Positions 1 to 43,920 of a stretch of 64,000 bases of DNA are shown here, piece by piece (positions within the stretch are counted from its first letter, which is position 1; each line of letters begins with the position of its first letter). The notes under the pieces were generated by a model. It ran no database searches, had not been told where the DNA came from, and saw only the letters and a program-made list of their open reading frames with translations. The stretch is from Octopus vulgaris. Lineage: Eukaryota. The position numbers and the translations under genes are program-made. The stretch spans positions 8,122,001-8,186,000 of the forward strand of contig OX597840.1 in the NCBI GenBank assembly GCA_951406725.2, written 5' to 3'.

Positions 1-3000
1 CCTCCAGGTGAATGTCCAGTGTGGTGTGGTCACTCTGTATATTATATCTGTTATTATTTCCTCCAGGTGAATGTCCAGTGTGGTGTGGTCACTCTGTATA
101 TTATATCTGTTGTTATTTTCTCCAGGTGACTATCCAGTGTGGTGTGGTCACTCTGTATATTATATCTGTTGTTGTTTTCTCCAGGTGACTATCCAGTGTG
201 ATGTGGTCACTCTGTATATTATATCTGTTGTTGTTTTCTCCAGGTGACTATCCAGTGTGGTGTGGTCACTCTGTATATTATATCTGTTGTTATTTTCTCC
301 AGGTGACTATCCAGTGTGATGTGGTCACTCTGTATATTATATCTGTTGTTGTTTTCTCCAGGTGACTATCCAGTGTGGTGTGGTCACTCTGTATATTATA
401 TCTGTTGTTATTTTCTCCAAGTGAATGTCCAGTGTGGTGTGGTCACTCTGTATACTATATCTGTTGTTATTTTCTCCAGGTGAATATCCAGTGTGGTGTG
501 GTCACTCTGTATACTATATCTGTTGTTATTTTCTCCAAGTGAATGTCCAGTGTGGTGTGGTCACTCTGTATATTATATCTGTTGTTATTTTCTCCAAGTG
601 AATGTCCAGTGTGATGTGGTCACTCTGTATATTATATCTGTTGTTATTTTCTCCAGGTGAATGTCCAGTGTGGTGTGGTCTCTCTGTATATTATATCTGT
701 TGTTATTTTCTCTGGGTGAATGTCCAGTGTGATGTGGTCACTCTGTATATTATATCTGTTGTTGTTTTCTCCAGGTGACTATCCAGTGTGGTGTGGTCAC
801 TCTGTATATTATATCTGTTGTTATTTTCTCCAAGTGAATGTCCAGTGTGGTGTGGTCACTCTGTATACTATATCTGTTGTTATTTTCTCCAGGTGAATAT
901 CCAGTGTGGTGTGGTCACTCTGTATACTATATCTGTTGTTATTTTCTCCAAGTGAATGTCCAGTGTGGTGTGGTCACTCTGTATATTATATCTGTTGTTA
1001 TTTTCTCCAAGTGAATGTCCAGTGTGGTGTGGTCACTCTGTATATTATATCTGTTGTTATTTTCTCCAAGTGAATGTCCAGTGTGGTGTGGTCACTCTGT
1101 ATATTATATCTGTTGTTATTTTCTCCAAGTGAATGTCCAGTGTGGTGTGGTTACTCTGTATATTATATCTGTTGTTATTTTCTCCAAGTGAATGTCCAGT
1201 GTGGTGTGGTCACTCTGTATATTATATCTGTTGTTATTTTCTCCAAGTGAATGTCCAGTGTGGTGTGGTCACTCTGTATATTATATCTGTTGTTATTTTC
1301 TCCAAGTGAATGTCCAGTGTGGTGTGGTTACTCTGTATATTATATCTGTTGTTATTTTCTCCAAGTGAATGTCCAGTGTGGTGTGGTCACTCTGTATATT
1401 ATATCTGTTGTTATTTTCTCCAAGTGAATGTCCAGTGTGGTGTGGTCACTCTGTATATTATATCTGTTGTTATTTTCTCCAGGTGACTATCCAGTGTGGT
1501 GTGGTCACTCTGTATATTATATCTGTTGTTATTTTCTCCAAGTGAATGTCCAGTGTGGTGTGGTCACTCTGTATACTATATCTGTTGTTATTTTCTCCAG
1601 GTGAATATCCAGTGTGGTGTGGTCACTCTGTATACTATATCTGTTGTTATTTTCTCCAAGTGAATGTCCAGTGTGGTGTGGTCACTCTGTATATTATATC
1701 TGTTGTTATTTTCTCCAAGTGAATGTCCAGTGTGATGTGGTCACTCTGTATATTATATCTGTTGTTATTTTCTCCAGGTGAATGTCCAGTGTGGTGTGGT
1801 CTCTCTGTATATTATATCTGTTGTTATTTTCTCTGGGTGAATGTCCAGTGTGATGTGGTCACTCTGTATATTATATCTGTTGTTGTTTTCTCCAGGTGAC
1901 TATCCAGTGTGGTGTGGTCACTCTGTATATTATATCTGTTGTTATTTTCTCCAAGTGAATGTCCAGTGTGGTGTGGTCACTCTGTATACTATATCTGTTG
2001 TTATTTTCTCCAGGTGAATATCCAGTGTGGTGTGGTCACTCTGTATACTATATCTGTTGTTATTTTCTCCAAGTGAATGTCCAGTGTGGTGTGGTCACTC
2101 TGTATATTATATCTGTTGTTATTTTCTCCAAGTGAATGTCCAGTGTGGTGTGGTCACTCTGTATATTATATCTGTTGTTATTTTCTCCAAGTGAATGTCC
2201 AGTGTGGTGTGGTCACTCTGTATATTATATCTGTTGTTATTTTCTCCAAGTGAATGTCCAGTGTGGTGTGGTTACTCTGTATATTATATCTGTTGTTATT
2301 TTCTCCAAGTGAATGTCCAGTGTGGTGTGGTCACTCTGTATATTATATCTGTTGTTATTTTCTCCAAGTGAATGTCCAGTGTGGTGTGGTCACTCTGTAT
2401 ATTATATCTGTTGTTATTTTCTCCAAGTGAATGTCCAGTGTGGTGTGGTTACTCTGTATATTATATCTGTTGTTATTTTCTCCAAGTGAATGTCCAGTGT
2501 GGTGTGGTCACTCTGTATATTATATCTGTTGTTATTTTCTCCAAGTGAATGTCCAGTGTGGTGTGGTCACTCTGTATATTATATCTGTTGTTATTTTCTC
2601 CAAGTGAATGTCCAGTGTGGTGTGGTCACTCTGTATATTATATCTGTTGTTATTTTCTCCAAGTGAATGTCCAGTGTGATGTGGTCACTCTGTATATTAT
2701 ATCTGTTGTTATTTTCTCCAGGTGAATGTCCAGTGTGGTGTGGTCACTCTGTATGTTACATCTGATGTTATTTTCTCCAGGTGAATGTCCAGTGTGGTGT
2801 GGTCACTCTGTATATTATATCTGTTGTTATTTTCTCCAAGTGAATGTCCAGTGTGATGTGGTCACTCTGTATACTATATCTGTTGTTATTTTCTCCAGGT
2901 GAATGTCCAGTGTGGTGTGGTCACTCTGTATGTTACATCTGATGTTATTTTCTCTGGGTGAATGTCCAGTGTGGTGTGGTCACTCTGTATATTATATCTG

Positions 3001-4251
3001 TTGTTATTTTCTCCAGGTGAATGTCCAGTGTGGTGTGGTCACTCTGTATATTATATCTGTTGTTATTTTCTCCAGGTGAATGTCCAGTGTGGTGTGGTCA
3101 CTCTGTATATTATATCTGTTGTTATTTTTTCCAGGTGAATGTCCAGTGTGGTGTGGTCACTCTGTATATTATATCTGTTGTTATTTTCTGCAGGTGAATG
3201 TCCAGTGTGGTGTGGTCACTCTGTATATTATATCTGTTGTTATTTTTTCCAGGTGAATGTCCAGTGTGGTGTGGTCACTCTGTATATTATATCTGTTGTT
3301 ATTTTCTGCAGGTGAATGTCCAGTGTGGTGTGGTCACTCTGTATATTATATCTGTTGTTATTTTTTCCAGGTGAATGTCCAGTGTGGTGTGGTCACTCTG
3401 TATATTATATCTGTTGTTATTTTCTGCAGGTGAATGTCCAGTGTGGTGTGGTCACTCTGTATATTATATCTGTTGTTATTTTTTCCAGGTGAATGTCCAG
3501 TGTGGTGTGGTCACTCTGTATATTATATCTGTTGTTATTTTCTGCAGGTGAATGTCCAGTGTGGTGTGGTCACTCTCTGTATATTATATCTGTTGTTATT
3601 TTTTCCAGGTGAATGTCCAGTGTGGTGTGGTCACTCTGTATATTATATCTGTTGTTATTTTCTGCAGGTGAATGTCCAGTGTGGTGTGGTCACTCTGTAT
3701 ATTATATCTGTTGTTATTTTCTCCAGGTGAATGTCCAGTGTGGTGTGGTCACTCTGTATATTATATCTGTTGGTATTTTCTCCAGGTGAATGTCCAGTGT
3801 GGTGTGGTCACTCTGTATATTATATCTGTTGTTATTTTCTCTAGGTGAATGTCCAGTGTGGTGTGGTCACTCTATATTATATCTGTTGTTATTTTCTCCA
3901 GGTGAATATCCAGTGTGGTGTGGTCACTCTGTATATTATATCTGTTGTTATTTTCTCTGGGTGAATGTCCAGTGTGGTGTGGTCACTCTGTATATTATAT
4001 CTGTTGTTATTTTCTCCAGGTGAGAGTCCAGTGTGGTGTGGTCACTCTATATTATATCTGTTGTTATTTTCTCCAGGTGAATGTCCAGTGTGGTGTGGTC
4101 ACTCTATATTATATCTGTTGTTATGTTCTCCAGGTGAATGTCCAGTGTGGTGTGGAAACTCTGTATATTATATCTGTTGTTATTTTCTCTGGGTGAGTAC
4201 CCAATTTGGTGCGGTCACTCTGTATGTTACATCTATTGTTGTTGTCTCCAG
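1..4251 (+). repeat. 59-bp tandem minisatellite (~72 units, truncated by window start) in the intron before the plus-strand paralogue exon
   Basis: Unit GTGAATGTCCAGTGTGGTGTGGTCACTCTGTATATTATATCTGTTGTTATTTTCTCCAG repeats every 59 nt and runs directly into the exon at 4252. Confidence 0.97.
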
Positions 4252-4486
4252 GTGGGTGTCCAGTGTGGTGTGGTCACTGTGTACGCTTCATTTAACAACA
4301 GTTATCCCAATGAAGCCGACTACGACTACGAGGCTTGGGCAACTGACAATAAGCCGGGCAAATTATTTCTTGTACAAAAATCAGAACTTGATCAGCTTTT
4401 CCTTACTGTTCTTTCCAAGAAACGATTTGATCTCAATTCCGCAGCCTGTGACAATCCTTCCTACAACATCAGCTTCAAACCAACAG
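4252..4486 (+). CDS. Penultimate coding exon of the plus-strand paralogue of the VWA-domain gene (upstream exons outside window)
   Basis: gtctccag|GTG...ACAG|gtaag, 235 nt, phase 0/1. Encodes VGVQCGVVTVYASFNNSYPNEADYDYEAW...NISFKPT, 70/78 aa identical to exon 22559-22793. Confidence 0.88.
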
Positions 4487-5920: not shown

Positions 5921-5962
<42 letters not shown>

Positions 5963-6822: not shown

Positions 6823-6860
6823 TATGTAATAAACGTATTTCCATCTTTTATATTTTTCAG

Positions 6861-6967
6861 TGGCCACGATAACTCCAGTAAGAATGAGTGATGCTGCAGT
6901 CACTAAACAGCTTTTCATAAACTCATGGATTTATGCTGGACTCTTACTTGTTTGGCAAATGGCTTGA
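6861..6967 (+). CDS. Terminal coding exon of the plus-strand paralogue (GPI-signal-like hydrophobic tail)
   Basis: tttttcag acceptor; phase 1 fits the preceding exon. Encodes (V)ATITPVRMSDAAVTKQLFINSWIYAGLLLVWQMA-TGA. Same length (107 nt) as 20062-20168. Confidence 0.8.
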
Positions 6968-7729
6968 TCAGAACCAGTGACCATCTATAAATGGTACCAA
7001 TATCCATGAACTCTTATACACCCACATGAACACATCCATACATGCATGTGACCGCGTGTGTACCGTTGGCGATTTTTTTTTCTCTGTCTTCCCTTCTCCT
7101 ATGTTTCCGACGAAGAGCTCCGCTCGAAACATTAAACCCTCCTTCTTTCCTTCTTTCTTGAGCGTCCAATAATACTACATTTGTTCCATGTCCTCGCGTT
7201 GTTGTGTTTTTTTGTGCTTTCATGTTTGGATTAACTATATATACATATATATGTATATACATACATTTATATATATATATATATATATACATAATAAATA
7301 TAAGAGAGTGGTCACTATATGGCTCACTCTAGCACCAGTTAATCCAAAAGGTTTCAACCACAAAAATACATGTTTCCCATGAAAGTCAGTACGATTGTTA
7401 GCTCACACGGACAGATATTTTTTTTCTAATTTTTATATATGGCGGTGCCCCAGCATGGCCACAGCTCATTAGCTGGAACTGAAAAATCAAAAAAATCAAA
7501 AATCAAATATATATATTATATTTTGTGAAATTTGATTTAGTATTTCTAAACTGAATTTTTCCCTGTAAGTTTGGAATAATATTCCCTATTATTATTATTA
7601 TTGTTATTGTTGTTGTTTTTCTTGTTGTTATTGTTGTTGTTATTGTTGTTTTTGTTGTTGTTGTTATTATTATTATTATTGTTATTATTATTATTATTAT
7701 TATATTATATTTATACCTAATGTTTTTGA

Positions 7730-9900: not shown

Positions 9901-10777
9901 AACATAAATGATTTTTATAATGATAAACCTAATTATCTGAATTATGATAAGTTTTATTTAGGTAACTATCGTCTTAATAATAATAGGTATTTTGATAATA
10001 TAAATCATACATTTAATAATGGAATAAAAAATTAAAATATAAATAAAAATAAGATAAAATTTAATTCAATTAATGATGATAATAAATTTAATAATATTAC
10101 AAAAAATATAATAATAATAAAATATAAAAGATAAGAATAAAATATGGTTAATCGTTCCTTTTGGGGCTCAGGTAAAAATATGTTATTAAAGAGATTTTAA
10201 ATATAATTGAAATATTCATTAGGGATAATAAAACATATTAAAACATTCTAGAAGCTTAGATAATTTTCGTCTTTTTCATTAATAAAAATATTTCTTCATT
10301 TTCATTAATAAATTTATTCTATCTTTTTACACGTCTTCACGAGTTTATTCTTTATATATAAAAGTGAAGTTCTGTGTGTGAGAGTCTGTCTACTCCGATT
10401 TAGATTCCTAACTACTCCCACATTTTGCAGTGAAGTTTAACCAAAAGAGGGTATCTTATAGTCGTGATTCATATCGAGCCCTTCTGGGTATTAGCGCGCG
10501 TCTACGATGAGACTACGATTTAAACAAAAATTTACCATTATTTTTTCGTTCTTTTAATGCATTTTTTACACGGTTTTATATAAGGAAAGTAACTCTCTAA
10601 AAATGCTTATATAGTTATTTCCCTTACAAACCCAAGCAACGCCGGGCGATACTGCTAGTTTCTTATAAATGCTAAGACCTACATTTTTACGTTTAATATT
10701 CAGTTATATAATATTCATCGATAAGTAACGTTTTTTATTTAACAATATTATTTAATTTTTGAATTGTATTATGTTTA

Positions 10778-11420
10778 ATAATAATGAAATTATTGGATAC
10801 TGTGCTCAGGTGCACCACAACTTGTCAGAAAGTGCGTATAAAACATATTCAGTAATGTACAAATGTCTGGAAAGTGAACAGTGTATGAGTCAGATACATG
10901 CTTGTGTGTGTATGGAGGGGAGAAAATCAGGTGTAGTGTTGGCAAATGTCAGGTAGCATGGAAGTTTTGAAGGATGCAGTGCTCCGACAACTAACAACTG
11001 ATGCCGGTAGTTTGTTCCATGCTTCAGCAACTCTCAGCATGAAAAAATGTTTCCTGAAGTCATGGGAGCTGTGCTGTTTTCTTACTTTGGAAACATGTCC
11101 ACGGGTGTTAGACAGGTGGAGTTTGAAAAGGTGCTCAGAGTTATTGTTTGTAAGATGGTTGATAATTTTATGGGTGTCTGCCAAGTCAGCTGCCAGACGT
11201 CAGAGTTTCAATGTATCCATGCCCAGTGAAGTAAGGCGTTCAGAATATGGCAAATGCCTGATGGAGGGTATTCTATTGGTTGCACGTCGCTGAACAGCTT
11301 CCAGACGATTAATATCCTGGGCAAGATAGGGGTTCCAGACCAGTGATGCAAATTCCAGGTGAGGTTGCACCATAGCTATATAAAGCCGCAGATAGATAGC
11401 CGGAGAACGGCTCACAAAAT
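10778..11420 (-). mobile_element. CR1-type LINE 3' fragment
   Basis: LYIAMVQPHLEFASLVWNPY...LEAVQRRAT and TRGH...FFMLRVAEAWNKLP motifs. Confidence 0.9.
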
Positions 11421-16149: not shown

Positions 16150-17639
16150 TACGACAGGCTTCTTTCAGTTTCCGTCTACCAAATCCACTCACAAGGCATT
16201 GGTCGGCCCGGGGTTATAGCAGAAGACACTTGCCCAAGATGCCACGCAGTGGGACTGAACCCGGAACCATGTGGTTGGTTAGCAAGCTACTTACCACACA
16301 GCCACTCCTGCGCCTATATTATTTTCCAGCGTAGAAACACCACTCCCTCTTTTGTTATATATCTACCATGCCTGGAATGAAAACGCCACCACCCAAAGTC
16401 AAACAAAAGGTAACACAACACTCGACAAAATCTTACATGAACAGAAAGATATTAATTCAAAACTCACACTCCTATTGGACAAATCACATTGCAAAGATAC
16501 ATTCCCGGAAAACGGAATATCCCTACATACAGAAATAAGTGAAAGCATCCAAAAAAATCTGTAAAGCATTTGAAACCTCACTAATGCAGAAACCTGAAAA
16601 TAACCGTAATTCTGGAATGGAAAACAATAGTTTCATATATCAACAGTCTTCCGATATCAAGAAAGCTATCTTTCAAGTATGGACCAAAAATCATAATAAT
16701 TTCATTATTATTAAACATAATACAATTCAAAAATTAAATAATATTGTTAAATAAAAAACGTTACTTATCGATGAATATTACATAACTTAATTTTAAATGT
16801 AAAAATGTAGGTCTTAGCAATTAAAAGAAACTAGCAGTATCGCCCGGCATTGCTCGGGTTTGTAAGGGAAAAAACTATAGAAGCATTTTTAGAGAGTTAC
16901 TTCCCTTATATAAAACCGAGTAAAAAATGCATTAAAAAAACGAAAAAATGATGGTAAATTTTTTTTTAAATCGTAGACTCATCGTAGACGAGCGCTAATA
17001 CCCAGAAGGGCTCGATATGAATCACGACTATAAGATACCCTCTTTTGGTTAAACTGCACTTCAAAATGTGGGAGTAGTTAGGAATCTAAATCGGAGTAGA
17101 CAGACTCTCACACACACAACTTCAGTTTTATATATAAAGAATAAACTCGTGAAGACGTGTAAAAAGATAGAATAAATTTATTAATGAAAATGAAGAAATA
17201 TTTTTATTAATGAAAAAGACGAAAATTATCTAAGCTTCTAGAATGTTATAATATTTTTTATTATCCCTAATGAATATTTCAATTATATTTAAAATCTCTT
17301 TAATAACATATATTTTTACCTGAGCCCCAAAAGGAACGATTAACCATATTTTAGTCTTATTTTTTATATTTTATTATTATTATTATATTTTTTGTAATAT
17401 TATTAAATTTATTATCATCATTAATTGAATTAAATTTTATCTTATTTTTATTTATATTTTAATTTTTTATTCCATTATTAAATGTATGATTTATATTATC
17501 AAAATACCTATTATTATTAAGACGATAGTTACCTAAATAAAACTTATCATAATTAAGATAATTAGGTTTATCATTATAAAAATCATTTATATTATAATCC
17601 TTCAAATTATGATTATATTTACAAATTTAAAAGAATTTA

Positions 17640-19520
17640 ATAATATTATTATATCCTGCCTCACACAGGGCTTTATAATGATAAGGTGCATGTTTATTAA
17701 AAATCTCTAAATCATAAGAAAGTAATGATATTCTTTTACCTACGTTATTTATCAATGATTTTTAAACAGCAGGTGGATGATTACTATAAGCATTAATATA
17801 TCTGAGATTTTCATTAATTTTATGGAATGGTTGGGTTTTACCCCTTATTAAATTAAAATTAACATCTACATAATTAACATTATAGTTCTCATTATAAATA
17901 GTAATACTTAAACCATATCTTTTAAAGAAATTATAAAGTTTCTTTTTATGCAATTCTAATTTTCTATTTGTACAATCCTTAGTAAGTAATAAAAGGTCAT
18001 CTCTATAAACCACCCTCCAATTTTAAATTTTCTAATTGAAGTTCTGATAATAAATTAAAACCTTCTAAATCAGTAACCTGTGCAGAATCTGGTGCCTCCA
18101 TATGTATATCAAAATAGTTCCTAGTATCCTTCCTAGCCTATAATTTATTATTATATCTAATTAACGATTTTCTAGCCATTTTAATATCATTAACTTCATC
18201 AGAAGTCATTCCTACCTTATTCATTGCATAAATTAGGGCTTTATTGAGTACGATCTCATCAATAGAAGAATAATAATTATCTATATTTATTTGAATGAAT
18301 TTATATTTATTTTTATCTTTAGTATTATGAAATCATTTTTAAGTATCAGTAGTACTATTCCCAAATTTAAGGTAATTAATTTTGTTTAATCTATTAAGGA
18401 GTGGCTGTGTGGTAAGTAGCTTGCTTACCAACCACATGGTTCGGGTTCAGTCCCACGTGGCACTTTGGGCAAGTGTCTTCTTCTATAGCCTCGGGCTGAC
18501 CAAAGCCTTGTGAGTGGATTTGGTAGACGGAAACTGAAAGAAGCCTTTCGTATATATATATGTATATATATGTATGTGTGTGTGTTTGTGTGTCTGTGTT
18601 TGTCCTCCCAACATCGCTTGACAACCGATGCTGGTGTGTTCATGTCCCCGTCACTTAGCGGTTCGGCAAAAGAGACCGATAGAATAAGTACTGGACTTAC
18701 AAAAGAATAAGTCCCGGGGTCAAGTTTGCTCGATTAAATGTGGTGCTCCAGCATGGCCGGAGTCAAATGACTGAAACAAGTAAAAGAGTAAAAAGAGAGT
18801 AATGTATTTATCTAGAATAAATTTAATTAATTTACCTAAATCTGATTTACATGGACAAATTAATCTAACCTTGGGGTCAGAGTAAAAATTTTCCTTATGG
18901 TCTTTCAAGGTCATTCTAGGGTGCATAGGTACGTAAGGTTCAGTTTTATTATCTAAATTATATTTCATCATTATTAATTTAGAGTCTTTATTTATATTAT
19001 AGAGTGTATTTTCTGGAACAATATTATATTTTTCATTTCTTTCCTTCTTTCTCTAATAGGATATCATATAATTTATAGTTTATAGAGGTTCTTAGTTTTA
19101 TCTGATTGTACTATAATACCTTCCATATTTCACATTTCTTTTATTTTAATAGCTAAATTTCTTAAATATTTATTATGTCAATTTTGGGTATTTATGAAAA
19201 TAAAATTTTTTTACCTCCTCCCAAATATTGTCCTCTAAAACCTGAATTTCTCTATTATATGGAAGTTCCTTCCAAGATTTAAATTTTCAGTTAATATGAT
19301 TATTATTCTCTACATCATTAATGTTAGATATGTTACAACTATTATAGTAGGCTTTCCATTTAATCCTAGAAATAAAATCTTTAATATTATTAATCAGTTT
19401 TAAAATATGTTCCTTTCTAGATGGTATGGGAATATCCTTCAAAGATGAATTCCAAAAAGTGGTTCTATTTTACCTGTAAGTTCCATAACTGACGAAAATG
19501 AGGGTAAATGCACTCAGAAA
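17640..19520 (-). pseudogene. Inverted copy of the degenerate Penelope-like RT
   Basis: Mirror of 7730-9900; retains YRDD (ORF 17762-18013) and lacks the RTE insertion. Confidence 0.8.
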
Positions 19521-19695
19521 CATTAGGTAAAAATACAACAACAACAACAACAATAACAATAATAATAATAAACAACAACAACAACAACAATAATAGGGAA
19601 TATTATTCCAAACTTACAGGGAAAAATTCAGTTTAGAAATACTAAATCAAATTTCACAAAATATAATATAGATATATATAAAAATTAGAAAAAAA

Positions 19696-19760
<65 letters not shown>

Positions 19761-19880
19761 ATACATATATATGTATATATAGTTAATCCAAACATGAAAG
19801 CACAAAAAAAACACAACAACGCGAGGACGTGGAACAAATATAGTATTATTGGACGCTCAGGAAGGAAGGGAAGAAGGTGG

Positions 19881-19915
19881 GTTTTACGTTTCGAGCGGAG
19901 CTCTTCGTCAGAAAC
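19881..19915 (-). ncRNA. Minimal hammerhead motif (Penelope-type) in a small repeat just downstream of the stop codon
   Basis: Minus strand: GTTT-CTGACGA-A-GAGCTCCGCTC-GAAACGT-A-AAAC. The mirror copy at 7103-7137 has a mutated core; a degenerate relative lies at ~32459-32494. Confidence 0.55.
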
Positions 19916-20061
19916 ATAGGAGACGGAAGGATCCAGAGAAGACAGAGCAAAAAAAATCGCCAACGGTACACACGCGGTCACATGCATGTATGGATGTGTT
20001 TATGTGGGTGTATAAGAGTTCATGGATATTGGTACCATTTATAGCTGTTCACTGTTTCTGA

Positions 20062-20168
20062 TCAAGCCATTTGCCAAAGAAGTAAGAGTCCAGCATAAAT
20101 CCATGCATTTATGAGAAGCTGTTTAGTGACTCCAATATCAGATGCTGTTGATGCATACATCTCAGAAT
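20062..20168 (-). CDS. Exon 6 (terminal) of minus-strand VWA-domain gene; GPI-signal-like tail
   Basis: tttttcag acceptor, phase 1. Encodes (D)SEMYASTASDIGVTKQLLINAWIYAGLLLLWQMA-TGA. Confidence 0.8.
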
Positions 20169-21794
20169 CTGAAAAATATAAAAGATGGAAATACGTTTAT
20201 TCACAACTAGCAGTATCGCCCGGCGTTGCTCGGGTTTGTAAGGGAAATAACTATATAAACATTTTTAGAGATGTAAAGTATAATAGCCATCTCAAGGTGG
20301 GGTGTTACTGTAGCTTTTTACGTTCTGAGATTTAATAATAAATTTTTAGAGAGTTACTTCCCTTATATATGCCAAAAATGCATTAAAATGGAAAAAAATG
20401 ATGGTAAATTTGTTTTTAAATCGTAGACTCATTGTAGACGCGCACTAATACCCAGAAGGGCTTGATATGAATCACGACTATAAGATACCCAGTTTTGGTT
20501 AAACTGCACCGCAAAATGTGGGAGTAGTTAGGAATCTAAATCGTAGGAGACAGACAGCACACAACCTCACTTTTATATATAAAGATTAGCAATGCATCCC
20601 GGCGTTGCCCGGGTGTTATGACCTACAGCCATATTGTATTATTTGTTCCTTTCTTATGGGCAGAATCATCACTGCTTGTTTATTATTGCTTCTTTAAAAG
20701 TGAAAAGGGAAGGTACACTTTGCATGGGTTTGCATAGAAGTGTTTTCTTTTCTTAAGAAAGATCACATAGGCGCAGGAGTGGCTGTGTGGTAAGTAGCTT
20801 GCAAACCAACCACATGGTTCCGGGTTCAGTCCCACTGCGTGGCACCTTGGGCAAGTGTCTTCTGCTATAGCCCCGGGCCGACCAAAGCCTTGTGAGTGGA
20901 TTTGGTGGATGGAAATTGAAAGAAGCCTGTCGTATATATGTATGTGTGTGTGTGTTTGTGTGTGTGTGTTTGTGTGTCTGTGTTTGTCCCCCTAGCATTG
21001 CTTGACAACCGATGCTGGTGTGTTTATGACCCCGTCACTTAGCAGTTCGGCAAAGAGACGGATAGAATAAGTACTGGGCTTGCAAAGAATAAGTCCCGGG
21101 GTCGATTTGCTCGACTAAAGGAGGTGCTCCAGCATGTCCGCAGTCAAATGACTGAAACAAGTAAAAGAGAAAGAGAAAGAGATTACGAATCTAGGAAATA
21201 TATTTCTTTTTAAAATTTAATTTTTCTTAAAGAAACGTTCACTGCTCCTTCCCCCACCCATCACCTACCTGCTTTCAAGAACCTAAAAAGCCTTTGACAG
21301 GGTCCCCCGATCCCTTATCTGGTGGTCGATGCGGAAACTGGAGATTGACGAATGGCTAATAAGGGCTGTACAGGCCCTATACAGAGAGGCTGTCAGCAAG
21401 GTTAGGATTGGCGACTCCCCTGGCACGTAAAAAGCACCCGCTACACTCATGAAGTGGTTGGTGTTAGGAAGGGCATCCAGCTGTAGAAACACTGCTAGAT
21501 CAGACTGGAGCCTGGTGCAGCCTCCTTGGCTTCCCAGACCCCGGTCGAACTGTCCAACCCGTGCTGACGCGGAAAACGGACGTTAACCGATGATGATGAT
21601 GATGTTTCATTTTCATCTGATGTTTCACGCATTCATAGATTAATATGAAATAGCAGAGGAAAAAAATATTAGAGCAGCCCCAGTCTGAACATAAAACAGG
21701 TAGGATATTTGGGCCGGATATGTCCAGTTTGAATGCTAAAGGGTTCACTGATCATTCCGTAATCTACAGACTTTACATTAAAGATATAAACATT

Positions 21795-22516
21795 ATAATA
21801 ATAATAGTAATTTAATTATTGTATACAGTGCTCAGGTGCACCACAACTTGTCAGAAAGTGCATATAAAGCATATGCAGTAATGTACAAATGTCTGGGAAG
21901 TGAACAGCGTATGAGTCAGATATATGCTTGTGTGTGTATGGAGGGGAGGAAATTAGGTGTAGAATTGGCGAATCTCAGGAAGCATGGAAGTTTTGAAGGA
22001 TGCAGTGCTCAGACAACTAACAACTGATTCCGGCAGTTTGTTCCATGCTTCAGCAACTCTCAGCATGAAAAAATGTTTCCGAAAGTCATGGGAGCTGTGC
22101 TGTTTTCTGACTTTGTAAACATGTCCACGGGTGTTAGACAGGTGGAGTTTTTAAATAATAATAATGATAATGAAATTATTGTATACAGTGCTCAGGTGCA
22201 CCACAACTTGTCAGAAAGTGCATATAAAGTATATGCAGTAATGTACAAATGTCTGGGAAATGAACAGTGTATGAGTCAGATACATGCTTGCCAGTGTATG
22301 GAGGGGAGAAAATCAGGTGTAGTGTTGGCGAATCTCAGAAATCATGGAAGTTTTGAAGGATGCAGTGCTGCGACAACTGATAACTGATGCCGGCAGTTTG
22401 TTCCATGCTTCAGCAACTCTTAGCGTGAAAAAATGTTTCCGAAAGTCATGGGAGCTGTGGTATTTTCTGACTTTATAAAAATGCTCACGGGTGTTAGACG
22501 GGTGGAGTTTGAAAAG
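21795..22516 (-). mobile_element. Two tandem CR1-type 3' fragments
   Basis: Two successive copies (about 21795-22150 and 22155-22516) of the same 3' end; the other arm has only one at 4530-4890. Confidence 0.85.
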
Positions 22517-22558
22517 GATATTATAGAATAATGTATAAAAGAAAATGAAGTAGCTTAC

Positions 22559-22793
22559 CTGTTGGTTTGAAGCTGATGTTGTAGGAAGGATTGTCACAGG
22601 CAGCGGAATTGAGATCAAATCGTTTCTTGGAAAGAACAGTAAGGAAAAGCTGATCAAGTTCTGATTTTGGCAGAAGAAATAATTTGCCCGGATGATAGTC
22701 AGTTGCCGAAGTCTCGTAGTCGTAGTCGGCTTCATTGGGATAACTGTTGTTAAATGACCCATACACAGTGACCACACCACACTGGACACTCAC
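22559..22793 (-). CDS. Exon 5 of minus-strand VWA-domain gene
   Basis: ttctccag|GTGAGT...ACAG|gtaag, 235 nt, phase 0/1. Encodes VSVQCGVVTVYGSFNNSYPNEADYDYETS...NISFKPT. Confidence 0.88.
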
Positions 22794-25700
22794 CTGGAGA
22801 AAACAACAACAGATATAATATACACAGTGACCACACCACACTGGAAACTCACCTGGAGAAAACAACAATAGATGTAACATACAGAGTGACCGCACCAAAT
22901 TGGGTACTCACCCAGAGAAAATAACAACAGTTATAATATAGAGAGTGACCACACCACACTGGACATTCACCTGGAGAATATAACAACAGATATAATATAC
23001 AGAGTGACCACACCACACTGGACATTCACCTGCAGAAAATAACAACAGATATAATATACAGTGACCACACCACACTGGACATTCACCTGGAGAAAATAAC
23101 AACAGATATAATATACAGTGACCACACCACACTGGACATTCACCTGGAGAAAATAACAACAGATATAATATACAGAGTGACCACACCACATTGGACATTC
23201 ACCTGGAGAAAATAACAACAGATATAATATACAGTGACCACGGCGTACTGGACATTCACCTGGAGAAAATAACAACAGATATAATATACAGAGTTCCCAG
23301 ACCACACTGGACATTCACATGGAGAAAATAACAACAGATATAATATACAGAGTTCCCAGACCACACTGGACATTCACATGGAGAAAATAACAACAGATAT
23401 AATATACAGAGTGACCACACCACACTGGACATTCACCTGGAGAACATAACAACAGATATAATATACAGAGTGACCACACCACACTGGACATTCACCTGCA
23501 GAAAATAACAACAGATATAATATACAGAGTGACCACACCACACTGGACATTCACCTGCAGAAAATAACAACAGATATAATATACAGAGTGACCACACCAC
23601 ACTGGACATTCACCTGCAGAAAATAACAACAGATATAATATACAGAGTAACCACACCACACTGGACATTCACCTGCAGAAAATAACAACAGATATAATAT
23701 ACAGAGTGACCACACCACACTGGACATTCACCTGGAGAAAATAAGAATAGATATAATATACAGAGTGACCACACCACACTGGACATTCACATGGAGAAAA
23801 TAACAACAGATATAATATACAGAGTGACCACACCACACTGGACATTCATATGGAGAAAATAAAAACAGATATAATATACAGAGTGACCACACCACACTGG
23901 ACATTCACATGGAGAACATAACAACAGATATAACATACAGAGTGACAACACCACACTGGACATTCACCTGGAGAAAATAACAACAGATATAATATACAGA
24001 GTGACCACACCACACTAGACATTCACCTGGAGAAAATAACAACAGATATAATATACAGAGTGACCACACCACACTGGACATTCACCTGCAGAAAATAACA
24101 ACAGATATAATATACAGAGTGACCACACCACACTAGACATTCACCTGGAGAAAATAACAACAGATATAATATACAGAGTGACCACACCACACTGGACATT
24201 CACCTGAAGAAAATAACAACAGATATAATATACAGAGTGACCACACCACACTGGACATTCACATGGAGAAAATAACAACAGATATAATATACAGAATGAC
24301 CACACCACACTGGACATTCACCTGCAGAAAATAACAACAGATATAATATACAGAGTGACCACACCACACTGGACATTCACATGGAGAAAATAACAACAGA
24401 TATAATATACAGAATGACCACACCACACAGGACATTCACCTGAAGAAAATAACAACAGATATAATATACAGAGTGACCACACCACACAGGACATTCACCT
24501 GGAGAAAATAACAACAGATATAATATACAGAGTGACCACACCACACTGGACATTCACATGGAGAAAATAACAACAGATATAATATACAGAATGACCACAC
24601 CACACTGGACATTCACATGGAGAAAATAACAACAGATATAATATACAGAATGACCACACCACACTGGACATTCACCTGCAGAAAATAACAACAGATATAA
24701 TATACAGAGTGACCACACCACACTGGACATTCACCTGCAGAAAATAACAACAGATATAATATACAGAGTGACCACACCACACTGGACATTCACCTGCAGA
24801 AAATAACAAGATATAATATACAGTGACCACACCACACTGGACATTCACCTGCAGAAAATAAGAACAGATATAATATACAGAGTGACCACACCACACTGGA
24901 CATTCACATGGAGAAAATAACAACAGATATAATATACAGAGTGACCACACCACACTGGACATTCACCTGGAGAAAATAACAACAGATATAATATACAGAG
25001 TGACCACACCACACTGGACATTCACATGGAGAAAATAACAACAGATATAATATACAGTGACCACACCACACTGGACATTCACCTGCAGAAAATAACAACA
25101 GATATAATATACAGTGACCACACCACACTGGACATTCACCTGCAGAAAATAACAACAGATATAATATACAGAGTGACCACACCACACTGGACATTCACAT
25201 GGAGAACATAACAACAGATATAATATACAGAGTGACCACACCACACTGGACATTCACCTGGAGAAAATAACAACAGATATAGTATACAGAGTGACCACAC
25301 CACACTGGACATTCACCTGGAGAACATAACAACAGATATAATATACAGAGTGACCACACCACACTGGACATTCACCTGGAGAACATAACAACAGATATAA
25401 TATACAGAGTGACCACACCACACTGGACATTCACCTGGAGAACATAACAACAGATATAATATACAGAGTGACCACACCACACTGGACATTCACCTGGAGA
25501 AAATAACAACAGATATAACATACAGAGTGACCACACCACACTAGACATTCACCTGGAGAAAATAACAACAGATATAATATACAGAGTGAACACAACACAC
25601 TGGACATTCACCTGGAGAACATAACAACAGATATAATATACAGAGTGACCACACCACACTAGACATTCACCTGCAGAAAATAACAAGAGATATAATATAC

Positions 25701-25844
25701 AGAGCGACCACACCACACTGGACATTCACCTGGAGAAAATAACAACAGATATAATATACAGAGTGACCACACCACACTGGACATTCACCTGGAGAAAATA
25801 ACAACAGATATAATATACAGTGACTGCACTAAACTGGACACTCA
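22794..25844 (-). repeat. 59-bp minisatellite (~52 units) in intron 4; inverted counterpart of 1-4251
   Basis: Reverse complement of the same unit (some 57-bp variants), abutting the exon 5 acceptor. Confidence 0.97.
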
Positions 25845-26036
25845 TGAAAAGCATATAACATATGCAGTGTTATAGGTGCAGGAGTGGCTGTGTGGTAAGT
25901 AGCTTGTTTACCAACCACATGGTTCCGGGTTCAGTCCCACTGCGTGGCATCTTGGGCAAGTGTCTTCTACTATAGCCTCTGGTCAACTAAAACCTAGTGA
26001 GCGGATTTGGTAGACGGAACCTGAAGAAAGCCCATC

Positions 26037-26119
<83 letters not shown>

Positions 26120-26794
26120 TGTGTGTGTTTGTGTGTCTGTGTTTGTATCCCTGGCATTGCTTGACAACCGATGCTGGTGTGTTTATGTCCCCGTTTCTTA
26201 GCGGTTCGGCAAAAGAGACCGATAGAATAAGTACTGGGCTTACAAAAGAATAAGTCCCAGGGTCGAGTTGCTCGATTAAAGGCGGTGCTCCAGCATGGCC
26301 GCAGTCAAATGACTGAAACAAGTAAAAGAGTAAAAGAGTGTTCCTGATTTCATCTGACTGCTTCATTTAGAAAAGAAGTCCAAACTGTGTCCCCTAAACC
26401 CTCTGTGTCCACCTATTGTCTCTTCCACCACACTACAACATTGTCTTCTCAGAAGTAGCTATTTACATACCAGCCCCTTCTAAGCAAATTTGGCACACCC
26501 GTTTCTGCCCTCCTCATCACACATTCTATGTCTAAACCCCACTTTCCCTGTACTAACAACTATGCCCAATCCTTTCTCCACCCACCCAATGTCGACCCAC
26601 CCTCCAGAATTCCCTCGTTTGTCCACATTTATCTTGCAGCCATAAATCTCCCAATTAAACATCAATAATAAGAATGTGACCATCCAGTCTTGGAAGGACT
26701 AAGAGGTTTATGGGTACTGTCCCGTCTTTCTCACTCATCCATAAAATTAGAAAACCACAACTCAGTTGACATTGTTCTAGAATATTCGTCTTAC

Positions 26795-26919
26795 CAGAAC
26801 TGTTGTACCCAAGGTGGACTTTGCCATGTTGTTGATCTGCAGGACTTGTTGTTTTGTCTCATTCGTCTTTGGAATGGCCATATTGAGTAACGAAGTTTCG
26901 TTCTGAACAACGGCCGGAG
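26795..26919 (-). CDS. Exon 4 of minus-strand VWA-domain gene
   Basis: tgttttcag|CT CCG...GTT CTG|gtaag, 125 nt; phase 1/0 bridges exons 3 and 5. Encodes (A)PAVVQNETSLLNMAIPKTNETKQQVLQINNMAKSTLGTTVL. Confidence 0.8.
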
Positions 26920-27505
26920 CTGAAAACAGAAGGTAACATTTAAGAAAACATAATATAGCAGTTAAATACAATACAATACAATACCATACCATACCATACC
27001 ATATGGTATATCATATAATATAATATAATATAACTAGCAGTACAGCCTGGCTTTGCGTGGACTGAACCCGGAACCATGTGGTTCGTAAGCAAGCTACTTA
27101 CCACACAGCCACTCCTATGCCTATACACACACACACACACACATATATATATAATCAGGAAAAAAAACACTTATTATCAATTCAAAATGAACAATTAAAT
27201 TACACCATCTAGAAAATTACATATAATAGAAATATTAAAATTAAAATAACAATAAAATAATTAAGTAATAAATATACTTTAATATATATATATATAGCCT
27301 CGTCTGGCACCTGTGTCGGTGGCACATAAAATCAGCCACTACACTCTCGGAGTGGTTGGCGTTAGGAAGGGCATCCAGCTGTAGAAACACTGCCAGATCT
27401 GACTGGCCTGGTGCAGCCTTCGGGCTTGCCAGACCCCAGTTGAACCGTCCAACCCATGCTAGCATGGAAAGCGGACGTTAAACGATGATGATGATGATGA
27501 TGATG

Positions 27506-28704: not shown

Positions 28705-29262
28705 CTTCACAGGAATCAGATTCAATTTCCCTCACAATAAAATCAATCTCATTATAATCTTTCAAGTTGATGAAATGTGTACAACTGGGTTCACTTGCTG
28801 CTGCAGTTAACTCAGACGCACTTGGATTGACAACTCCAATTGTAAATATAGTGACGCCGTCATCTTTCAGTTTCTGAGCTGCCGCTACTGTTCTCGTTTC
28901 GCTCTCTGACTTTCCATCTGTGACCAAAACTAAAACTTTTGCAGCAACAGATTTTCTTGTATTTGTAAAGACACTGGTACGTGCTAAGTCAAGAGCTTCA
29001 TCCGTGTGAGTAAACCCTTCATTATAAGTTATATCGTCAATAGCCTTTCTTACTGCAGAGTTCGTACTGTGGTCACTTAAGGAAAATGATACGTGAGGAT
29101 TGGTTGAAAATCTAATCACTGCAACACGTGTCTTATCTGGACCAATGTCTAGATTACGCACAATATTTTCTAAGAAGATTTTTGTCTTATTAAAGTCCTG
29201 CTCTCCAACACTTCCGGATGAATCAATAACGAAAACAAGGTCGATCTGGGCACTGGCGCAAT
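28705..29262 (-). CDS. Exon 3: von Willebrand factor A (integrin I-like/matrilin-type) domain
   Basis: ttttccag|AT...GAAG|gtaag, 558 nt, symmetric phase 1/1. CASAQIDLVFVIDSSGSVGEQDF (MIDAS DxSxS), GFTHT, VLVLVTDGKS, GVTIFTIGV are canonical VWA motifs. Confidence 0.95.
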
Positions 29263-29359: not shown

Positions 29360-31235
29360 AAGAATAAAAATAGGATGGAGAAAATTCAGAGCCATTACAC
29401 TTACGGGCAACAAAAGATCTCTCTGCATAAAAATGCAGATTGTAAGATTTTTGTGGATGAAGAGCAATGCTACATGGTAGTGAAAAATGGGCCATGAATG
29501 AAAAGGACATCCGAAGACTAGAGAGGAATGAAGTTAGTATGCTCTGTTGGATGTCCAACATCAGTGTGCATGTATGATAAAGTGCTTGTGTATTGAGAAA
29601 AAATTAGGCATAAGAGGGAGTGTGGAAAAGAGACGACTGTGTTGGTTTGGGCATGTGATGTGTATGGATGAAGACAGTTGCATAAAGAAGTGGCTGTCGC
29701 TTAAACTAGATGGAATTGTGAGAGAAGAGACATGAGATGTGGTAAAGAGGGAACTGTGATGGTTTGGACATGTGATGTGTATTGATGAAGAGAGTAGCAT
29801 AAAGAAGTGGCTGTCACTTAAAATGGATGGAACATGTGGAAGTAGAAGAAACATGAGATGTAGGAAAGGAGGTACTGTGTTAGTTTGGGCATGTGATGTG
29901 TATGAATGAAGACAGTTGCATAAAGAAGTGGCTGTCACTTAAAATGGACAGAACTTGTGGAAGAAGAAACATGAGATGTGGTAAAGAGGGTACTGTGATG
30001 GTTTGGACATGTGATGTATATGGCTGAATACAGTTGTATAAAGAAGAGGCTGTCGTCTAAAATGGATGGAACTTGCGGAAGGAGAAGAGATATGAGATGT
30101 GCAAAAGAAGGGACTGTGATGGTTTGGACATGTGATGGGTATTGATGAAGAGAGCAGCATAAAGAAGTGGCTGTCGCTTAAATTAGATAGAACATGTGGA
30201 AGAAGAAACATGAGATGTGGGAAAGGAGGTACTGTGTTAGTTTGGGCATGTGGTGTGTATGAATGAAGACAGTTGCATAAAGAAGTGGCCGTCACTTAAA
30301 ATGGATGGAACATGTAGAAGAAGAGACATGGGAAAGAGGGGACTTTATTAGTTTGGACATGTGATGTATATGGCTGAATCTCTCTCTATTCGCTCAGTCG
30401 AAGTCGACGCTCGGTCACTCGTTGGATCAGTGTCCTCCAGTCAGTTCTATCTTGGGCCGCTTCCTTCAGATTGGTCATGTCCATTCCGGTATCACTCCTG
30501 ATGGTGTCAAGCCAGCGGGTTCTTGGTCGGCCTCTTCCTCTCTTGCCACTGACCATTCCGAGCATGATGTCCTTCTCCAGGGATTCTCTCCGCATAATAT
30601 GACCAAAATATGCCAATCTACGCTTGGTGATCCTAGCTTCTAGCGACATTTTCGGCCTGATCTGCTTAAGAACTTCTCCATTGGTTGGCCTCTTCCTCTC
30701 TTGCCACTGACCATTCCGAGCATGATGTCCTTCTCCAGGAATTCTCTCCGCATAATATGACCAAAATATGCCACTCTACGCTTGGTGATCCTAGCTTCTA
30801 GCGACATTTTCGGCCTGATCTGCTTAAGAACCTCTCCATTGGTGAGCCTCGCTGTCCATGGAATCCGCAATATGGCTGAATACAGTTGTATAAAGAAAAG
30901 GCTGTCGTCTAAAATGGACGGACTTGCGGAAGGAGAAGAGACATGAGACGTGGAAAAGAAGGGACTGTGTTGGTTTGGACATGTGATGTTTTTGGATGAA
31001 AGTGGGTACATAAAGATGTGGCCATCACTTAAAATGGATGGAACTTGTGGAAAGAGAAGAGACATGTGGAAAAGAGGGGAGTATGTTATGTTTGGTTATG
31101 TGATGTCTATGGATGAATGCAGTTGTGTAAAGAAGCGGATGTCGCTCAAAATGGATGGAACTTATGAAAGAAGAGGCATGAGATGAAGTAGTGATGGCTG
31201 ATCTCAAGATGTTGGGTCTTATGGAAGAGATGACA
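29360..31235 (+). repeat. Decayed RTE-like LINE whose WFGHVM-coding segment is amplified as a ~119-bp tandem repeat
   Basis: Unique LINE-like region from ~29360 (AMLHGSEKWAM...RRLERNE), then repeated GGTTTGG(A/G)CATGTGATG units at ~119-nt spacing. Confidence 0.75.
30380..30869 (-). mobile_element. RTE-type LINE 3' fragment with internal duplication and 12-bp TSD
   Basis: LRIPWTARLTN...RRLAYFGHIMRR...GRGRPRTRWLD. TSD ATATGGCTGAAT at 30368-30379 and 30870-30881. Confidence 0.88.
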
Positions 31236-32924: not shown

Positions 32925-33213
32925 CATTCCTCTGTTCTAATTTCTTTGCAGAATCTACGAAGACTTCCCTCGCGCCATCTGGGTTGATATGCTGGACCCA
33001 GTAATCTGCTTGCCCTTGTTTATCGACTGCGATTGGCGCTTGTAAGTTTAAGATAAACAAGCTCATTACCAGTCCAGAATATAGGGGTTTTTGTAGGTCG
33101 GACACTGTTACGGTTGATACAGCAACGTTCAACTCTGTTTGGACATTAATACAGTTTGTTCTCAGTATACCTTTGCAAGCATCTTTGACAGTTGTCAGTT
33201 GGGCTTCGGTTAC
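32925..33213 (-). CDS. Exon 2 of minus-strand VWA-domain gene (second half of N-terminal domain)
   Basis: tttctgtag|GTA ACC...AAT G|gtaag, 289 nt, phase 0/1. Encodes VTEAQLTTVKDACKG...DLQKPLYSGLVMSLF...QADYWVQHIN...LEQRN. Confidence 0.87.
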
Positions 33214-35206: not shown

Positions 35207-41087
<5,881 letters not shown>

Positions 41088-41909
41088 CAAGATAAGAAAA
41101 TGGAGAAATACATCTAAATCAAATATCAATTACCAAATAATACTCAATCACATACTTTATTAAACCACCACATAAGAGACTGTAGGGTTAAATATAAAAA
41201 GCAGAACAAATCAGTGTACATAGAGGAAAGTACATAAAAAAGTGTACATAAAAGAGTAATGTTGTATAATAAGTAGAATATATATTGGATATATGTTATC
41301 CCATGGAGGGTTGCATTTACAACCCGTATCTCAATTTGTATATATATAAAATATATATATATATATACAATATATATATATATATATATACTTTATATAA
41401 ATAATAATAAATATTAGGGAATAAATCCAAATTTACAGGGAAAAATCTGATTTAGGATTGAATCCAATTTTATAGTAAAATATTATATTATATTATATTA
41501 GAGACAAAACCACTATTATGCAAATCAAACAAAGAAAGACTTAAGCCAATACATAAAATAATTTATATAATTTATATATAATATAATATATTATATATAT
41601 ATATATATACATATATACGACGGGCTACTTTCAGTTTCCGTCTACCAAATCCACTCACAAGGCTTTGCTCGGCCCGAGCTTATAGTAGAAGACATTTGCC
41701 CAAGGTGCCATGCAGTGGGACTGGTTGGTAAGCAAGCTACTTACCACACAGCCACTCCTGCGCCTATATAGATATGATTATATATAGATATATAGATATG
41801 ATTTATACACGCACACACACACATGTCCATGCAGAAACACAAAAACACACACACCCAATATATCTTTCATCTGGAAACACATCAGGAACTAATATCTGTA
41901 TATATATGG

Positions 41910-41948
<39 letters not shown>

Positions 41949-43430: not shown

Positions 43431-43658
43431 CCTCCATATTCCACCCGTTCTTGCTTGGATAGACTCCATCTGGGCCTCTGCCAACCGTCTCAGGAAATAA
43501 TTGTCTTGTGCCAGAATACATTTTGTTCTGATTTTTCTTATGGTTGCATCGATGACGACATTACTGGTTTCACCAGGTTTCAGGGTCAAATCCATGGCAT
43601 AGACGTGTCTGGCAATGCCAAGACAAATGCCCACAAGCAGAAGATATCCGATGGTCAT
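43431..43658 (-). CDS. Exon 1 of minus-strand VWA-domain gene (signal peptide plus start of N-terminal domain)
   Basis: ATG; MTIGYLLLVGICLGIARHVYA is signal-peptide-like; ends ...FLRRLAEAQ...GGIWR|gtaagt. 228 nt; phase 0 matches exon 2. Confidence 0.87.
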
Positions 43659-43755
43659 GGCTGGAAATGTTTTCGTTTCTTCTGAAGCGATAAAAGTTAG
43701 GCAGCAGATCGCGATCGTGAACTAGTCGTTTGGAATCCTATCCTCAACTTTACTC

Positions 43756-43885: not shown

Positions 43886-43920
<35 letters not shown>

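What the first reader, a model, noticed from the sequence alone, without database searches (positions are those of the whole stretch)
22794..25844. Minisatellite made of stacked splice sites: each 59-bp unit is a GT...AG cassette
Seen: each unit is the first ~33 nt of exon 5 plus the last ~26 nt of the intron. Many unit junctions therefore read TTTTCTCCAG|GTGAAT, an acceptor immediately followed by a donor-like sequence, dozens of times ahead of the real acceptor. 59 is not a multiple of 3 and one frame hits TGA, so using an upstream acceptor as an exon start is non-productive. Some units have lost the AG (CAT|GTG, TGG|GTG) or shifted it (CAAG). Established: YAG|GT zero-length exons define recursive (ratchet) splicing, and tandem duplication of AG|GT proto-splice sites is a classic intron-gain model. 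Inference: the intron may be removed stepwise, or the array may act as a copy-number-dependent decoy/NMD rheostat. Both paralogues keep it (also 1-4251).
Basis: partly seen in the sequence, partly recalled or inferred. Interest (0 to 1): 0.72.

Follow-up and report, generated by a model that had tools for sequence, protein, structure and literature searches.

The report
Octopus repeat copying a splice boundary
A 59-base piece straddling the start of one exon in an octopus cell-surface gene has been tandemly copied about 50 times; such repeats are known from amphioxus and humans, where the extra splice sites mostly stay silent, and nothing here shows stepwise splicing.

Summary
Intron 4 of an Octopus VWA-domain gene (minus strand) ends in 52 units of about 59 bp, each 33 nt of exon 5 plus 26 nt of acceptor. 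Of 51 upstream junctions, 38 read CAG|GT, and all 38 lead to a stop.

It is best read as a 'mirage', a minisatellite spanning an intron-exon boundary. These are described in amphioxus and, on the donor side, in human genes, where most extra sites are silent.

The ratchet reading is poorly supported. The GT is the exon's Val codon (16 of 17 family modules). Donors regenerated in the array are weak (U1 pairing -5.4 kcal/mol), while the real exon regenerates the strongest one (-11.1), so a ratchet would run through exon 5. The AG is lost in 13/51 and 34/72 units rather than conserved. The paralogue inherited the array through a recent duplication (flanks 96-97% identical). It is not intron gain.

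Still open: low-level use of decoys feeding NMD, which could depend on copy number; and a weak hint that acceptor-killing alleles spread in both arrays. No RNA data could be examined. Interest 0.27.

The parts
22794..25845 (-). Array B: 52 units of about 59 bp (33 nt exon-5 copy + 26 nt acceptor) forming the 3' three-quarters of intron 4
25789..25845 (-). 5' edge unit, 57 nt, degenerate: no AG before it, starts AT instead of GT; shares positions 5, 14 and 20 with the diverged 3' edge unit
25846..25870 (-). Short degenerate acceptor-like remnant between a SINE-like end (class recalled) and the first unit; weak similarity to the unit tail (shuffle p 0.02-0.03)
22853..22911 (-). Diverged 3' edge unit (10 of 59 differences from consensus), preceded by a dead TGG junction; 58/59 identical to the unit at 4193-4251 of paralogue A
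22794..22852 (-). B-specific last unit: a recent copy of the real boundary with live CAG and GTGAGT; the one place where a two-step cut is conceivable
22559..22793 (-). Exon 5 of gene B (235 nt, phase 0 to 1), starts GTGAGT (Val-Ser); itself a putative RS-exon
26795..26919 (-). Exon 4 of gene B (125 nt); ends CTG, donor GTAAG
28705..29262 (-). Exon 3: VWA domain (PF00092, E 1.6e-45)
32925..33213 (-). Exon 2; also begins AG|GT (Val codon) with no array in front of it
43431..43658 (-). Exon 1 (signal-peptide-like N-terminus, by inspection); second copy at 55338 in a duplicated block
20062..20168 (-). Exon 6 coding part: hydrophobic C-terminal tail and stop
1..4251 (+). Array A of the inverted paralogue, at least 72 units, cut by the window edge; contains a 19-unit higher-order duplication
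4252..4486 (+). Exon 5 of paralogue A, starts GTGGGT (Val-Gly)
6862..6967 (+). Exon 6 coding part of paralogue A
16695..25844 (-). B arm of the inverted segmental duplication whose other arm is about 1-10794

Best explanation
A 'mirage': a minisatellite born from tandem duplication across the intron 4/exon 5 boundary of an Octopus VWA-domain gene. It expanded and turned over by slippage or unequal exchange, and was inherited by both paralogues through a recent inverted duplication.

Every unit carries AG because it copies an acceptor, and GT because exon 5 starts with a phase-0 Val codon.

Mature mRNA comes mainly from one cut, exon 4 donor (26795) to the last acceptor (22793). That acceptor is the only canonical YAG that opens the reading frame, and it pairs across a 235-nt exon with a strong GTAAG donor. 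Upstream acceptors are mostly ignored; rare mis-splicing gives premature-stop transcripts that NMD would clear.

Shown: anatomy, frames, turnover pattern, recent duplication. Inferred: exon definition as the selector, silence of the decoys, NMD.
For: 1. Architecture equals amphioxus BflGb6 (3' end of an intron + 5' part of the next exon in tandem). There, 'many, but not all' units keep AG/GT, edge units escape homogenisation, and RT-PCR showed regular splicing (PMC3087553 passages; PMC3902484 passage). Human donor-side cases use only the authentic site (F7, LMNB2, PDGF) or up to two pseudo-sites as well (6-16, CBS) (PMC1557585 Introduction).

2. Val opens the exon-5-type segment in 16 of 17 'xxVQCG' modules in the 13 Octopus homologues; the second residue varies K/N/T/S/G, so the donor-like hexamer is not conserved.

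3. The O. sinensis RefSeq model closest to paralogue A (LOC115230439, P0015) joins exon 4 directly to exon 5. Exons 4+5 form one predicted beta-sandwich domain (TM 0.73 to a mollusc VWA-protein model).

4. Turnover signature: a run of 18 identical units at lag 19 in A, array-private alleles, shared diverged edge units.

5. Flanks are 96.3-96.8% identical between paralogues.

6. Splice signals erode rather than persist. AG is lost in 13/51 (B) and 34/72 (A) junctions, and +5 G is absent in 49/51 and 70/72 units.
Against: No transcript data were available, so silence of the decoys rests on analogy.

In unspliced RNA each CAG|GTGAAT pairs with U1 about as well (-8.4 kcal/mol) as the real exon 4 donor (-8.0). 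A unit is therefore a plausible 59-nt cryptic exon.

B carries a fully intact acceptor only 59 nt upstream of the real one.

The arrays (52 and at least 72 units) are much longer than the precedents read (3-6 units in BflGb6; 5-26 in the human cases).

The public O. vulgaris model whose first four exons match gene B (P0014) does not use this exon 5; this is unexplained.

The homologues are predicted proteins, several are isoforms of one gene, and their RNA support could not be checked.
Confidence: 0.74

Rival explanations
1. Leaky decoy field or NMD rheostat: a sizeable share of transcripts uses an upstream acceptor, or includes a 59-nt unit as a poison exon, and is degraded, so output falls with the number of live-AG units.
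For: All 76 live decoys give premature stops well upstream of the last junction. In a unit the downstream donor (-8.4) beats the regenerated one (-5.4), which under the donor-competition model predicts inclusion rather than zero-length skipping. The G of the AG is the top array-private variant in both arrays by different changes (G>A 29/72, G>T 12/51); joint p is about 0.0006-0.005 in a naive permutation, as if decoys cost something. Intronic VNTR length can alter splicing, as at ABCA7 (PMC13196383 passage).
Against: The permutation ignores mutation bias and rests on three alleles amplified by turnover. AG loss shows no positional pattern in B (19/25 vs 18/25 live) and is, if anything, rarer near the exon in A (15/35 vs 22/36, p 0.16). 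Loss of decoys suggests a burden, not a maintained regulator. Precedents are mostly silent.
Confidence: 0.16
2. Recursive (ratchet) splicing: intron 4 is removed stepwise through zero-length AG|GT sites in the array.
For: 38 of 51 junctions are acceptor+GT pairs, each followed within 59 nt by another donor-like site. This resembles the roughly 50-nt cryptic RS-exon of Drosophila ratchet points (PMC8605326 Introduction). The B unit at 22852 regenerates a good donor (-9.2). 59 nt lies within the 50-90 nt range of the shortest typical animal introns (PMC13644364 passage).
Against: Ratchet points are ultraconserved, sit in long introns, and have a donor stronger than the RS-exon's. Here the AG ends in the most or second-most variable position, the intron is 4 kb, and the regenerated donor (-5.4) is weaker than the next unit's (-8.4) and than all five genuine donors (-8.0 to -11.4). 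The strongest regenerated donor is at real exon 5 (-11.1 in B, -10.3 in A), so an unchecked ratchet would delete exon 5 and frameshift into exon 6.
Confidence: 0.05
3. Editing-gated decoys: A-to-I editing, abundant in coleoid cephalopods (recalled; search listing), could restore the acceptor in CAA units and the +5 G of the array donors, making the decoys switchable.
For: Two of the array's main departures from good splice sites are G>A: position 59 in 29/72 A units, and +5 in most units. The paralogues are inverted and convergent, so read-through could form dsRNA.
Against: G>A is a common mutation, and B's loss is G>T, which cannot be edited back. The array has no special fold once periodicity is controlled (44, 58 and 134 of 150 shuffled-unit repeats fold as well). 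dsRNA would need long read-through.
Confidence: 0.03
4. Intron gain by tandem duplication of an AGGT proto-splice site.
For: Each unit is a GT...AG cassette, as in the tandem genomic duplication model (PMC3443670 passages). Mirages have been proposed as raw material for new introns.
Against: The model needs duplication of an exonic segment. Here 26 of 59 nt are intronic, and the intron has its own donor and 949 non-array nt. No new exon or intron has formed.
Confidence: 0.02

Closest known systems
Amphioxus 'mirages' (Adh3, BflGb6, BflGb9, TnC, PGBD5); PMC3087553, PMC3902484
   Same: Tandem copies of an intron-exon boundary, acceptor side as in BflGb6. Many but not all units keep AG/GT. Edge units are excluded from homogenisation.
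   Different: Found in a mollusc; 52 and at least 72 units against 3-6 in BflGb6; 59-bp unit; every live junction has both AG and GT. Splicing outcome and length polymorphism are not measured here.
Human boundary-spanning VNTRs (F7 IVS7, 6-16, CBS IVS13, LMNB2, PDGF); PMC1557585
   Same: Splice site reiterated in a minisatellite next to the authentic one; pseudo-sites are functional in sequence but mostly unused.
   Different: Those repeat a donor downstream of the real site, where 5'-to-3' scanning picks the first. Here acceptors lie upstream, so the real site is the last.
Drosophila ratchet points and vertebrate RS-exons; PMC8605326, PMC6224609
   Same: AG|GT juxtaposition with a second donor less than 100 nt downstream. 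Exon 5 itself regenerates a strong donor, like the 3.6% of human exons that are putative RS-exons kept in by the EJC.
   Different: Not conserved, not in a long intron, regenerated donors weaker than the downstream ones, and dozens in tandem.
Intron gain by tandem genomic duplication; PMC3443670
   Same: Duplicated AG|GT yields GT...AG cassettes.
   Different: The duplicated segment spans an existing boundary, and no new intron results.

Membership tests
Mirage (boundary-spanning minisatellite) | Tandem units each containing intron end plus exon start | tested here: met
   31/33 nt exon match + 26 nt acceptor; 52 units
Mirage (boundary-spanning minisatellite) | Many but not all units keep splice dinucleotides | tested here: met
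   38/51 and 38/72 junctions live
Mirage (boundary-spanning minisatellite) | Turnover in the interior, diverged edge units | tested here: met
   Lag-19 run of 18 units, private alleles, edge unit 49/59 to consensus but 58/59 between paralogues. Mean within-array identity (94.7-94.9%) is barely above between-array (94.4%), so homogenisation since the split is slight.
Mirage (boundary-spanning minisatellite) | Regular splicing not disturbed | not testable with these tools
   No RNA data; only predicted proteins with the direct junction
Mirage (boundary-spanning minisatellite) | Length polymorphism or somatic instability | not testable with these tools
   One sequence per paralogue; the copy numbers differ (52 vs at least 72)
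Recursive splice site (ratchet point) | Polypyrimidine tract + YAG directly followed by GT | tested here: met
Recursive splice site (ratchet point) | Regenerated donor stronger than the downstream RS-exon donor | tested here: not met
   -5.4 vs -8.4 kcal/mol in a crude U1-duplex score; exception: unit 22852 at -9.2
Recursive splice site (ratchet point) | Acceptor-donor motif highly conserved | tested here: not met
   G of AG is the 1st (A) and 2nd (B) most variable of 59 positions. GT is intact in 50/51 and 72/72 units, but 24-29 positions are invariant anyway. Cross-species conservation untested.
Recursive splice site (ratchet point) | Located in a long intron | tested here: not met
   4001 nt, of which 949 outside the array
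Recursive splice site (ratchet point) | Splicing intermediates, saw-tooth coverage, lariats | not testable with these tools
   No RNA-seq access
Intron gain by tandem duplication | Duplicated segment exonic; new intron bounded by duplicated AGGT | tested here: not met
   Unit is 44% intronic; the intron has its own donor at 26794
Poison-exon / AS-NMD regulation | Alternative event creates a premature stop | tested here: met
   76 of 76 live decoys
Poison-exon / AS-NMD regulation | Event actually used, regulated and conserved | not testable with these tools
   Two protein searches with array-derived frames found nothing; these are uninformative about RNA

The most novel reading that the evidence does not exclude
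The array is a working field of decoy acceptors and 59-nt poison exons whose number of live AGs sets gene output through NMD. The spread of different AG-killing alleles in the two paralogues records selection tuning it. The GTGAGT-starting last unit and exon 5 are handled by a short recursive step or by EJC protection in a mollusc.
Probability: 0.1. Interest if true: 0.7.

Novelty: new member of a known kind. Interest (0 to 1): 0.27.

Why it matters
As a mirage it extends a class known from amphioxus and human to an octopus, with unusually many units. It is a natural test of how the spliceosome picks the last of about 40 near-identical acceptors, the mirror image of the F7 donor problem. Two paralogues with different AG-killing alleles make it possible to ask whether cryptic splice sites are purged inside a turning-over repeat. 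Exon 5 regenerates a consensus donor on exon 4, so it could test whether the EJC blocks re-splicing in molluscs. That repression is reported as strong in mammals and was not detected for annotated RS-exons in Drosophila cells. Without RNA evidence it is a curiosity of repeat turnover, not a new mechanism.

Tried and rejected
RNA structure: a CTGCAG-rich block folded with z -3.5 against ordinary shuffles, but the real-acceptor region (z -0.5) and a CAA block (z 0.05) did not. With periodicity kept, none of three blocks was special. Predicted accessibility of the real acceptor (0.38 in B, 0.48 in A) is like that of CTCCAG decoys (0.41, 0.43), so structure does not single it out.

Rfam: no family in 22500-27000.

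Protein searches with a 96-aa array-derived frame and a 119-aa array-to-exon-5 frame found no hits, so nothing was learned about the array in other octopuses.

Microhomology origin: the 25 nt before the array resemble the unit tail only weakly (p 0.02-0.03); suggestive, not established.

Purging of decoys near the exon: not seen.

Retention in both paralogues as a sign of selection: rejected, because the duplication is recent.

Assembly artefact: unlikely for the array, given patterned variants and a shared diverged edge unit in two loci; exact copy numbers remain unverified.

An Octopus minimal intron size was not found in the listing or the passages.

The original mirage paper (Canestro 2002, PMC117041) is not held and is known only through citations.

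Accession numbers and cluster membership of the homologues were not obtained. No eukaryotic genome or RNA collection was on hand; the one genome collection is prokaryotic and was not scanned.

Full report
WHAT IS THERE. The finding lies in intron 4 of a six-exon gene on the minus strand ('B'). Exon 1 is 43658-43431, exon 2 33213-32925, exon 3 29262-28705, exon 4 26919-26795, exon 5 22793-22559, and exon 6 starts at 20168; the phases are consistent throughout. Exon 3 encodes a VWA domain. Exons 4+5 resemble a PPC-like beta-sandwich (a lead from predicted models). A search with exon 5 returned 13 proteins among 44 candidates, all named Octopus. The first four exons match an O. vulgaris predicted protein (P0014): 77 of 78 residues in exon 1, and exons 2-4 in full by sequence comparison. 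The window is thus Octopus, probably O. vulgaris. An inverted copy ('A') occupies about 1-10794, with its own array (1-4251, cut by the window edge), exon 5 (4252-4486) and exon 6.

THE OBSERVATION. It is confirmed. B has 52 units from 25845 to 22794. The consensus matches exon 5 at 31 of the first 33 nt, followed by 26 nt of acceptor. Of 51 junctions upstream of the real acceptor, 38 are CAG|GT, 12 CAT and 1 TGG. Of 72 in A, 38 are live, 29 CAA and 5 TGG. All 76 live decoys meet a stop within 3-60 codons. A few units are 57 nt and would be in-frame cassettes (5 of 51 in B, 3 of 72 in A). The array is 3052 of the 4001 nt of the intron.

WHERE THE GT COMES FROM. Exon 5 starts in phase 0 with Val. 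The pattern found 27 modules in the 13 homologues. I kept the 17 of the 'xxVQCG' type and dropped 10 of a second type whose exon boundary I cannot see. Sixteen of the 17 start with Val; the next residue is K (5), N (6), T (3), S (2) or G (1). Several rows are isoforms of one gene. So GT follows from the protein, and the donor-like hexamer is not conserved. Exon 2 of the same gene also starts AG|GT and has no array.

HISTORY. Flanking non-coding blocks of A and B are 96.3-96.8% identical, so sharing the array is inheritance from a recent duplication. A diverged unit near the exon is 58/59 identical between paralogues but only 49/59 to the consensus. It shares three states with the degenerate 5' edge unit. 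The interior carries array-private alleles and, in A, a 19-unit higher-order duplication. B has since added one fresh copy of the real boundary (22852-22794). This pattern is what unequal exchange or slippage with frozen edges produces (inference).

TESTING THE RATCHET. Drosophila ratchet points are ultraconserved, lie in long introns, and have a donor stronger than that of the short cryptic exon behind them (PMC8605326, Introduction). I scored donors by U1 duplex energy, a crude measure using a recalled U1 motif; no MaxEnt or Octopus-trained model was available. Genuine donors, all GTAAG, score -8.0 to -11.4 kcal/mol. The array's donor regenerated on exon 4 scores -5.4, and the same site in unspliced RNA -8.4. 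The real exon 5 regenerates -11.1 (B) and -10.3 (A). The polarity is therefore wrong. A recognised unit should be included as a 59-nt poison exon rather than skipped, and a free-running ratchet would find its best donor at exon 5 and delete it out of frame. The +5 G is absent from 49/51 and 70/72 units, and the G of the AG is the most (A) or second-most (B) variable position. In favour of the ratchet: the AG|GT plus nearby-donor geometry is right, GT is almost never lost (though 24-29 of 59 positions are invariant), the last B unit regenerates -9.2, and 59 nt is within the typical animal minimum of 50-90 nt (PMC13644364 passage). Exon 5 is itself a putative RS-exon. In human, 3.6% of exons are, and the EJC keeps them in. 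In Drosophila cells no EJC sensitivity was found for annotated RS-exons (PMC6224609, abstract and sections 8 and 15). No mollusc was named in the sections read.

TESTING THE RHEOSTAT. The stops are real, so any mis-splicing would feed NMD (established rule, not tested). One hint suggests decoys have a cost: the top private allele in each array hits the same base of the AG by a different change. Reassigning allele positions at random while keeping copy numbers gives p 0.06 (B), 0.01 (A) and 0.0006 jointly. It gives 0.003-0.005 under softer or four-position criteria. This rests on three alleles and ignores mutation bias. There is no positional pattern (B 19/25 vs 18/25 live; A 15/35 vs 22/36). 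If real, it points to purging rather than maintenance. RNA structure does not distinguish the real acceptor.

WHAT IS KNOWN. [quoted passage not shown] BflGb6 repeats the 3' end of an intron plus the 5' part of the exon; many but not all units keep AG/GT; edges escape homogenisation; splicing appears regular (PMC3087553 passages). Adh, TnC and PGBD5 are further cases (PMC3902484 passage). Human donor-side minisatellites use only the authentic site, or it plus two pseudo-sites (PMC1557585 abstract and Introduction). Intron gain by tandem duplication needs an exonic duplicate (PMC3443670 passages), which does not fit. ABCA7 shows that VNTR length can affect splicing (PMC13196383 passage). I saw no report of a mirage or of recursive splicing in an octopus or mollusc in the listings. 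Those were listings only, most subscription papers are not held, and no supplements were read.

VERDICT. A real, large mirage, a new member of a known kind, most likely spliced in one step to the last acceptor (0.74). Appreciable decoy/NMD use 0.16, ratchet 0.05, editing-gated decoys 0.03, intron gain 0.02. None of the splicing outcomes could be observed; RNA junction and lariat data would settle them. Interest 0.27.

Noticed in passing
window 35247-40995 (intron 1 of gene B): About 560-bp satellite at ~99% identity with an internal inversion (35247-36706 against 36714-40995); the pre-mRNA could form a near-perfect duplex of about 1.4 kb, a candidate editing substrate.
   Followed up: no
window 41080-52284 and 52778-64000: 11.3-kb direct duplicate at 97.9% on either side of a 100-N gap (52678-52777), each copy holding exon 1 (43658, 55338); may be two haplotypes assembled in tandem.
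   Followed up: partly
P0014 against window 43658-26795: The O. vulgaris model matches gene B's exons 1-4, then jumps to exon 2 of another copy and never uses this exon 5; a prediction artefact, a different haplotype or real skipping.
   Followed up: partly
window 4252-4486 vs 22793-22559: Exon 5 differs more between paralogues (94.5%) than neighbouring non-coding blocks do (96.3-96.8%): diversifying selection or conversion with other family copies.
   Followed up: no
window 22847 (-) and 4198 (+): In both paralogues a GAG 54 nt upstream of the real acceptor is the only upstream AG in the array giving a stop-free in-frame extension (18 codons); in A it is the first AG after the dead TGG junction.
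   Followed up: partly
P0006-P0013: Family members carry several tandem exon-4/5-type modules, and O. sinensis LOC115230178 isoforms X1-X3 include one or both of two such modules.
   Followed up: no
array units, exon 4 frame: Use of a decoy would end the protein in a hydrophobic 20-residue tail, loosely like the normal exon 6 tail.
   Followed up: no
window 29621-30378 and 30871-31171 (intron 2): Unrelated 118-bp minisatellite interrupted by a 158-bp tandem pair.
   Followed up: no
window 49297-51804 and 60982-63498: Tandem 1.27-kb units, each holding a ~380-bp self-palindrome.
   Followed up: no
window 21795-22510 (intron 5 of B): 360-bp element in two tandem copies in B, one in A (about 4512-4883), with further copies at 10776-11131, 42206 and 53888.
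   Followed up: no
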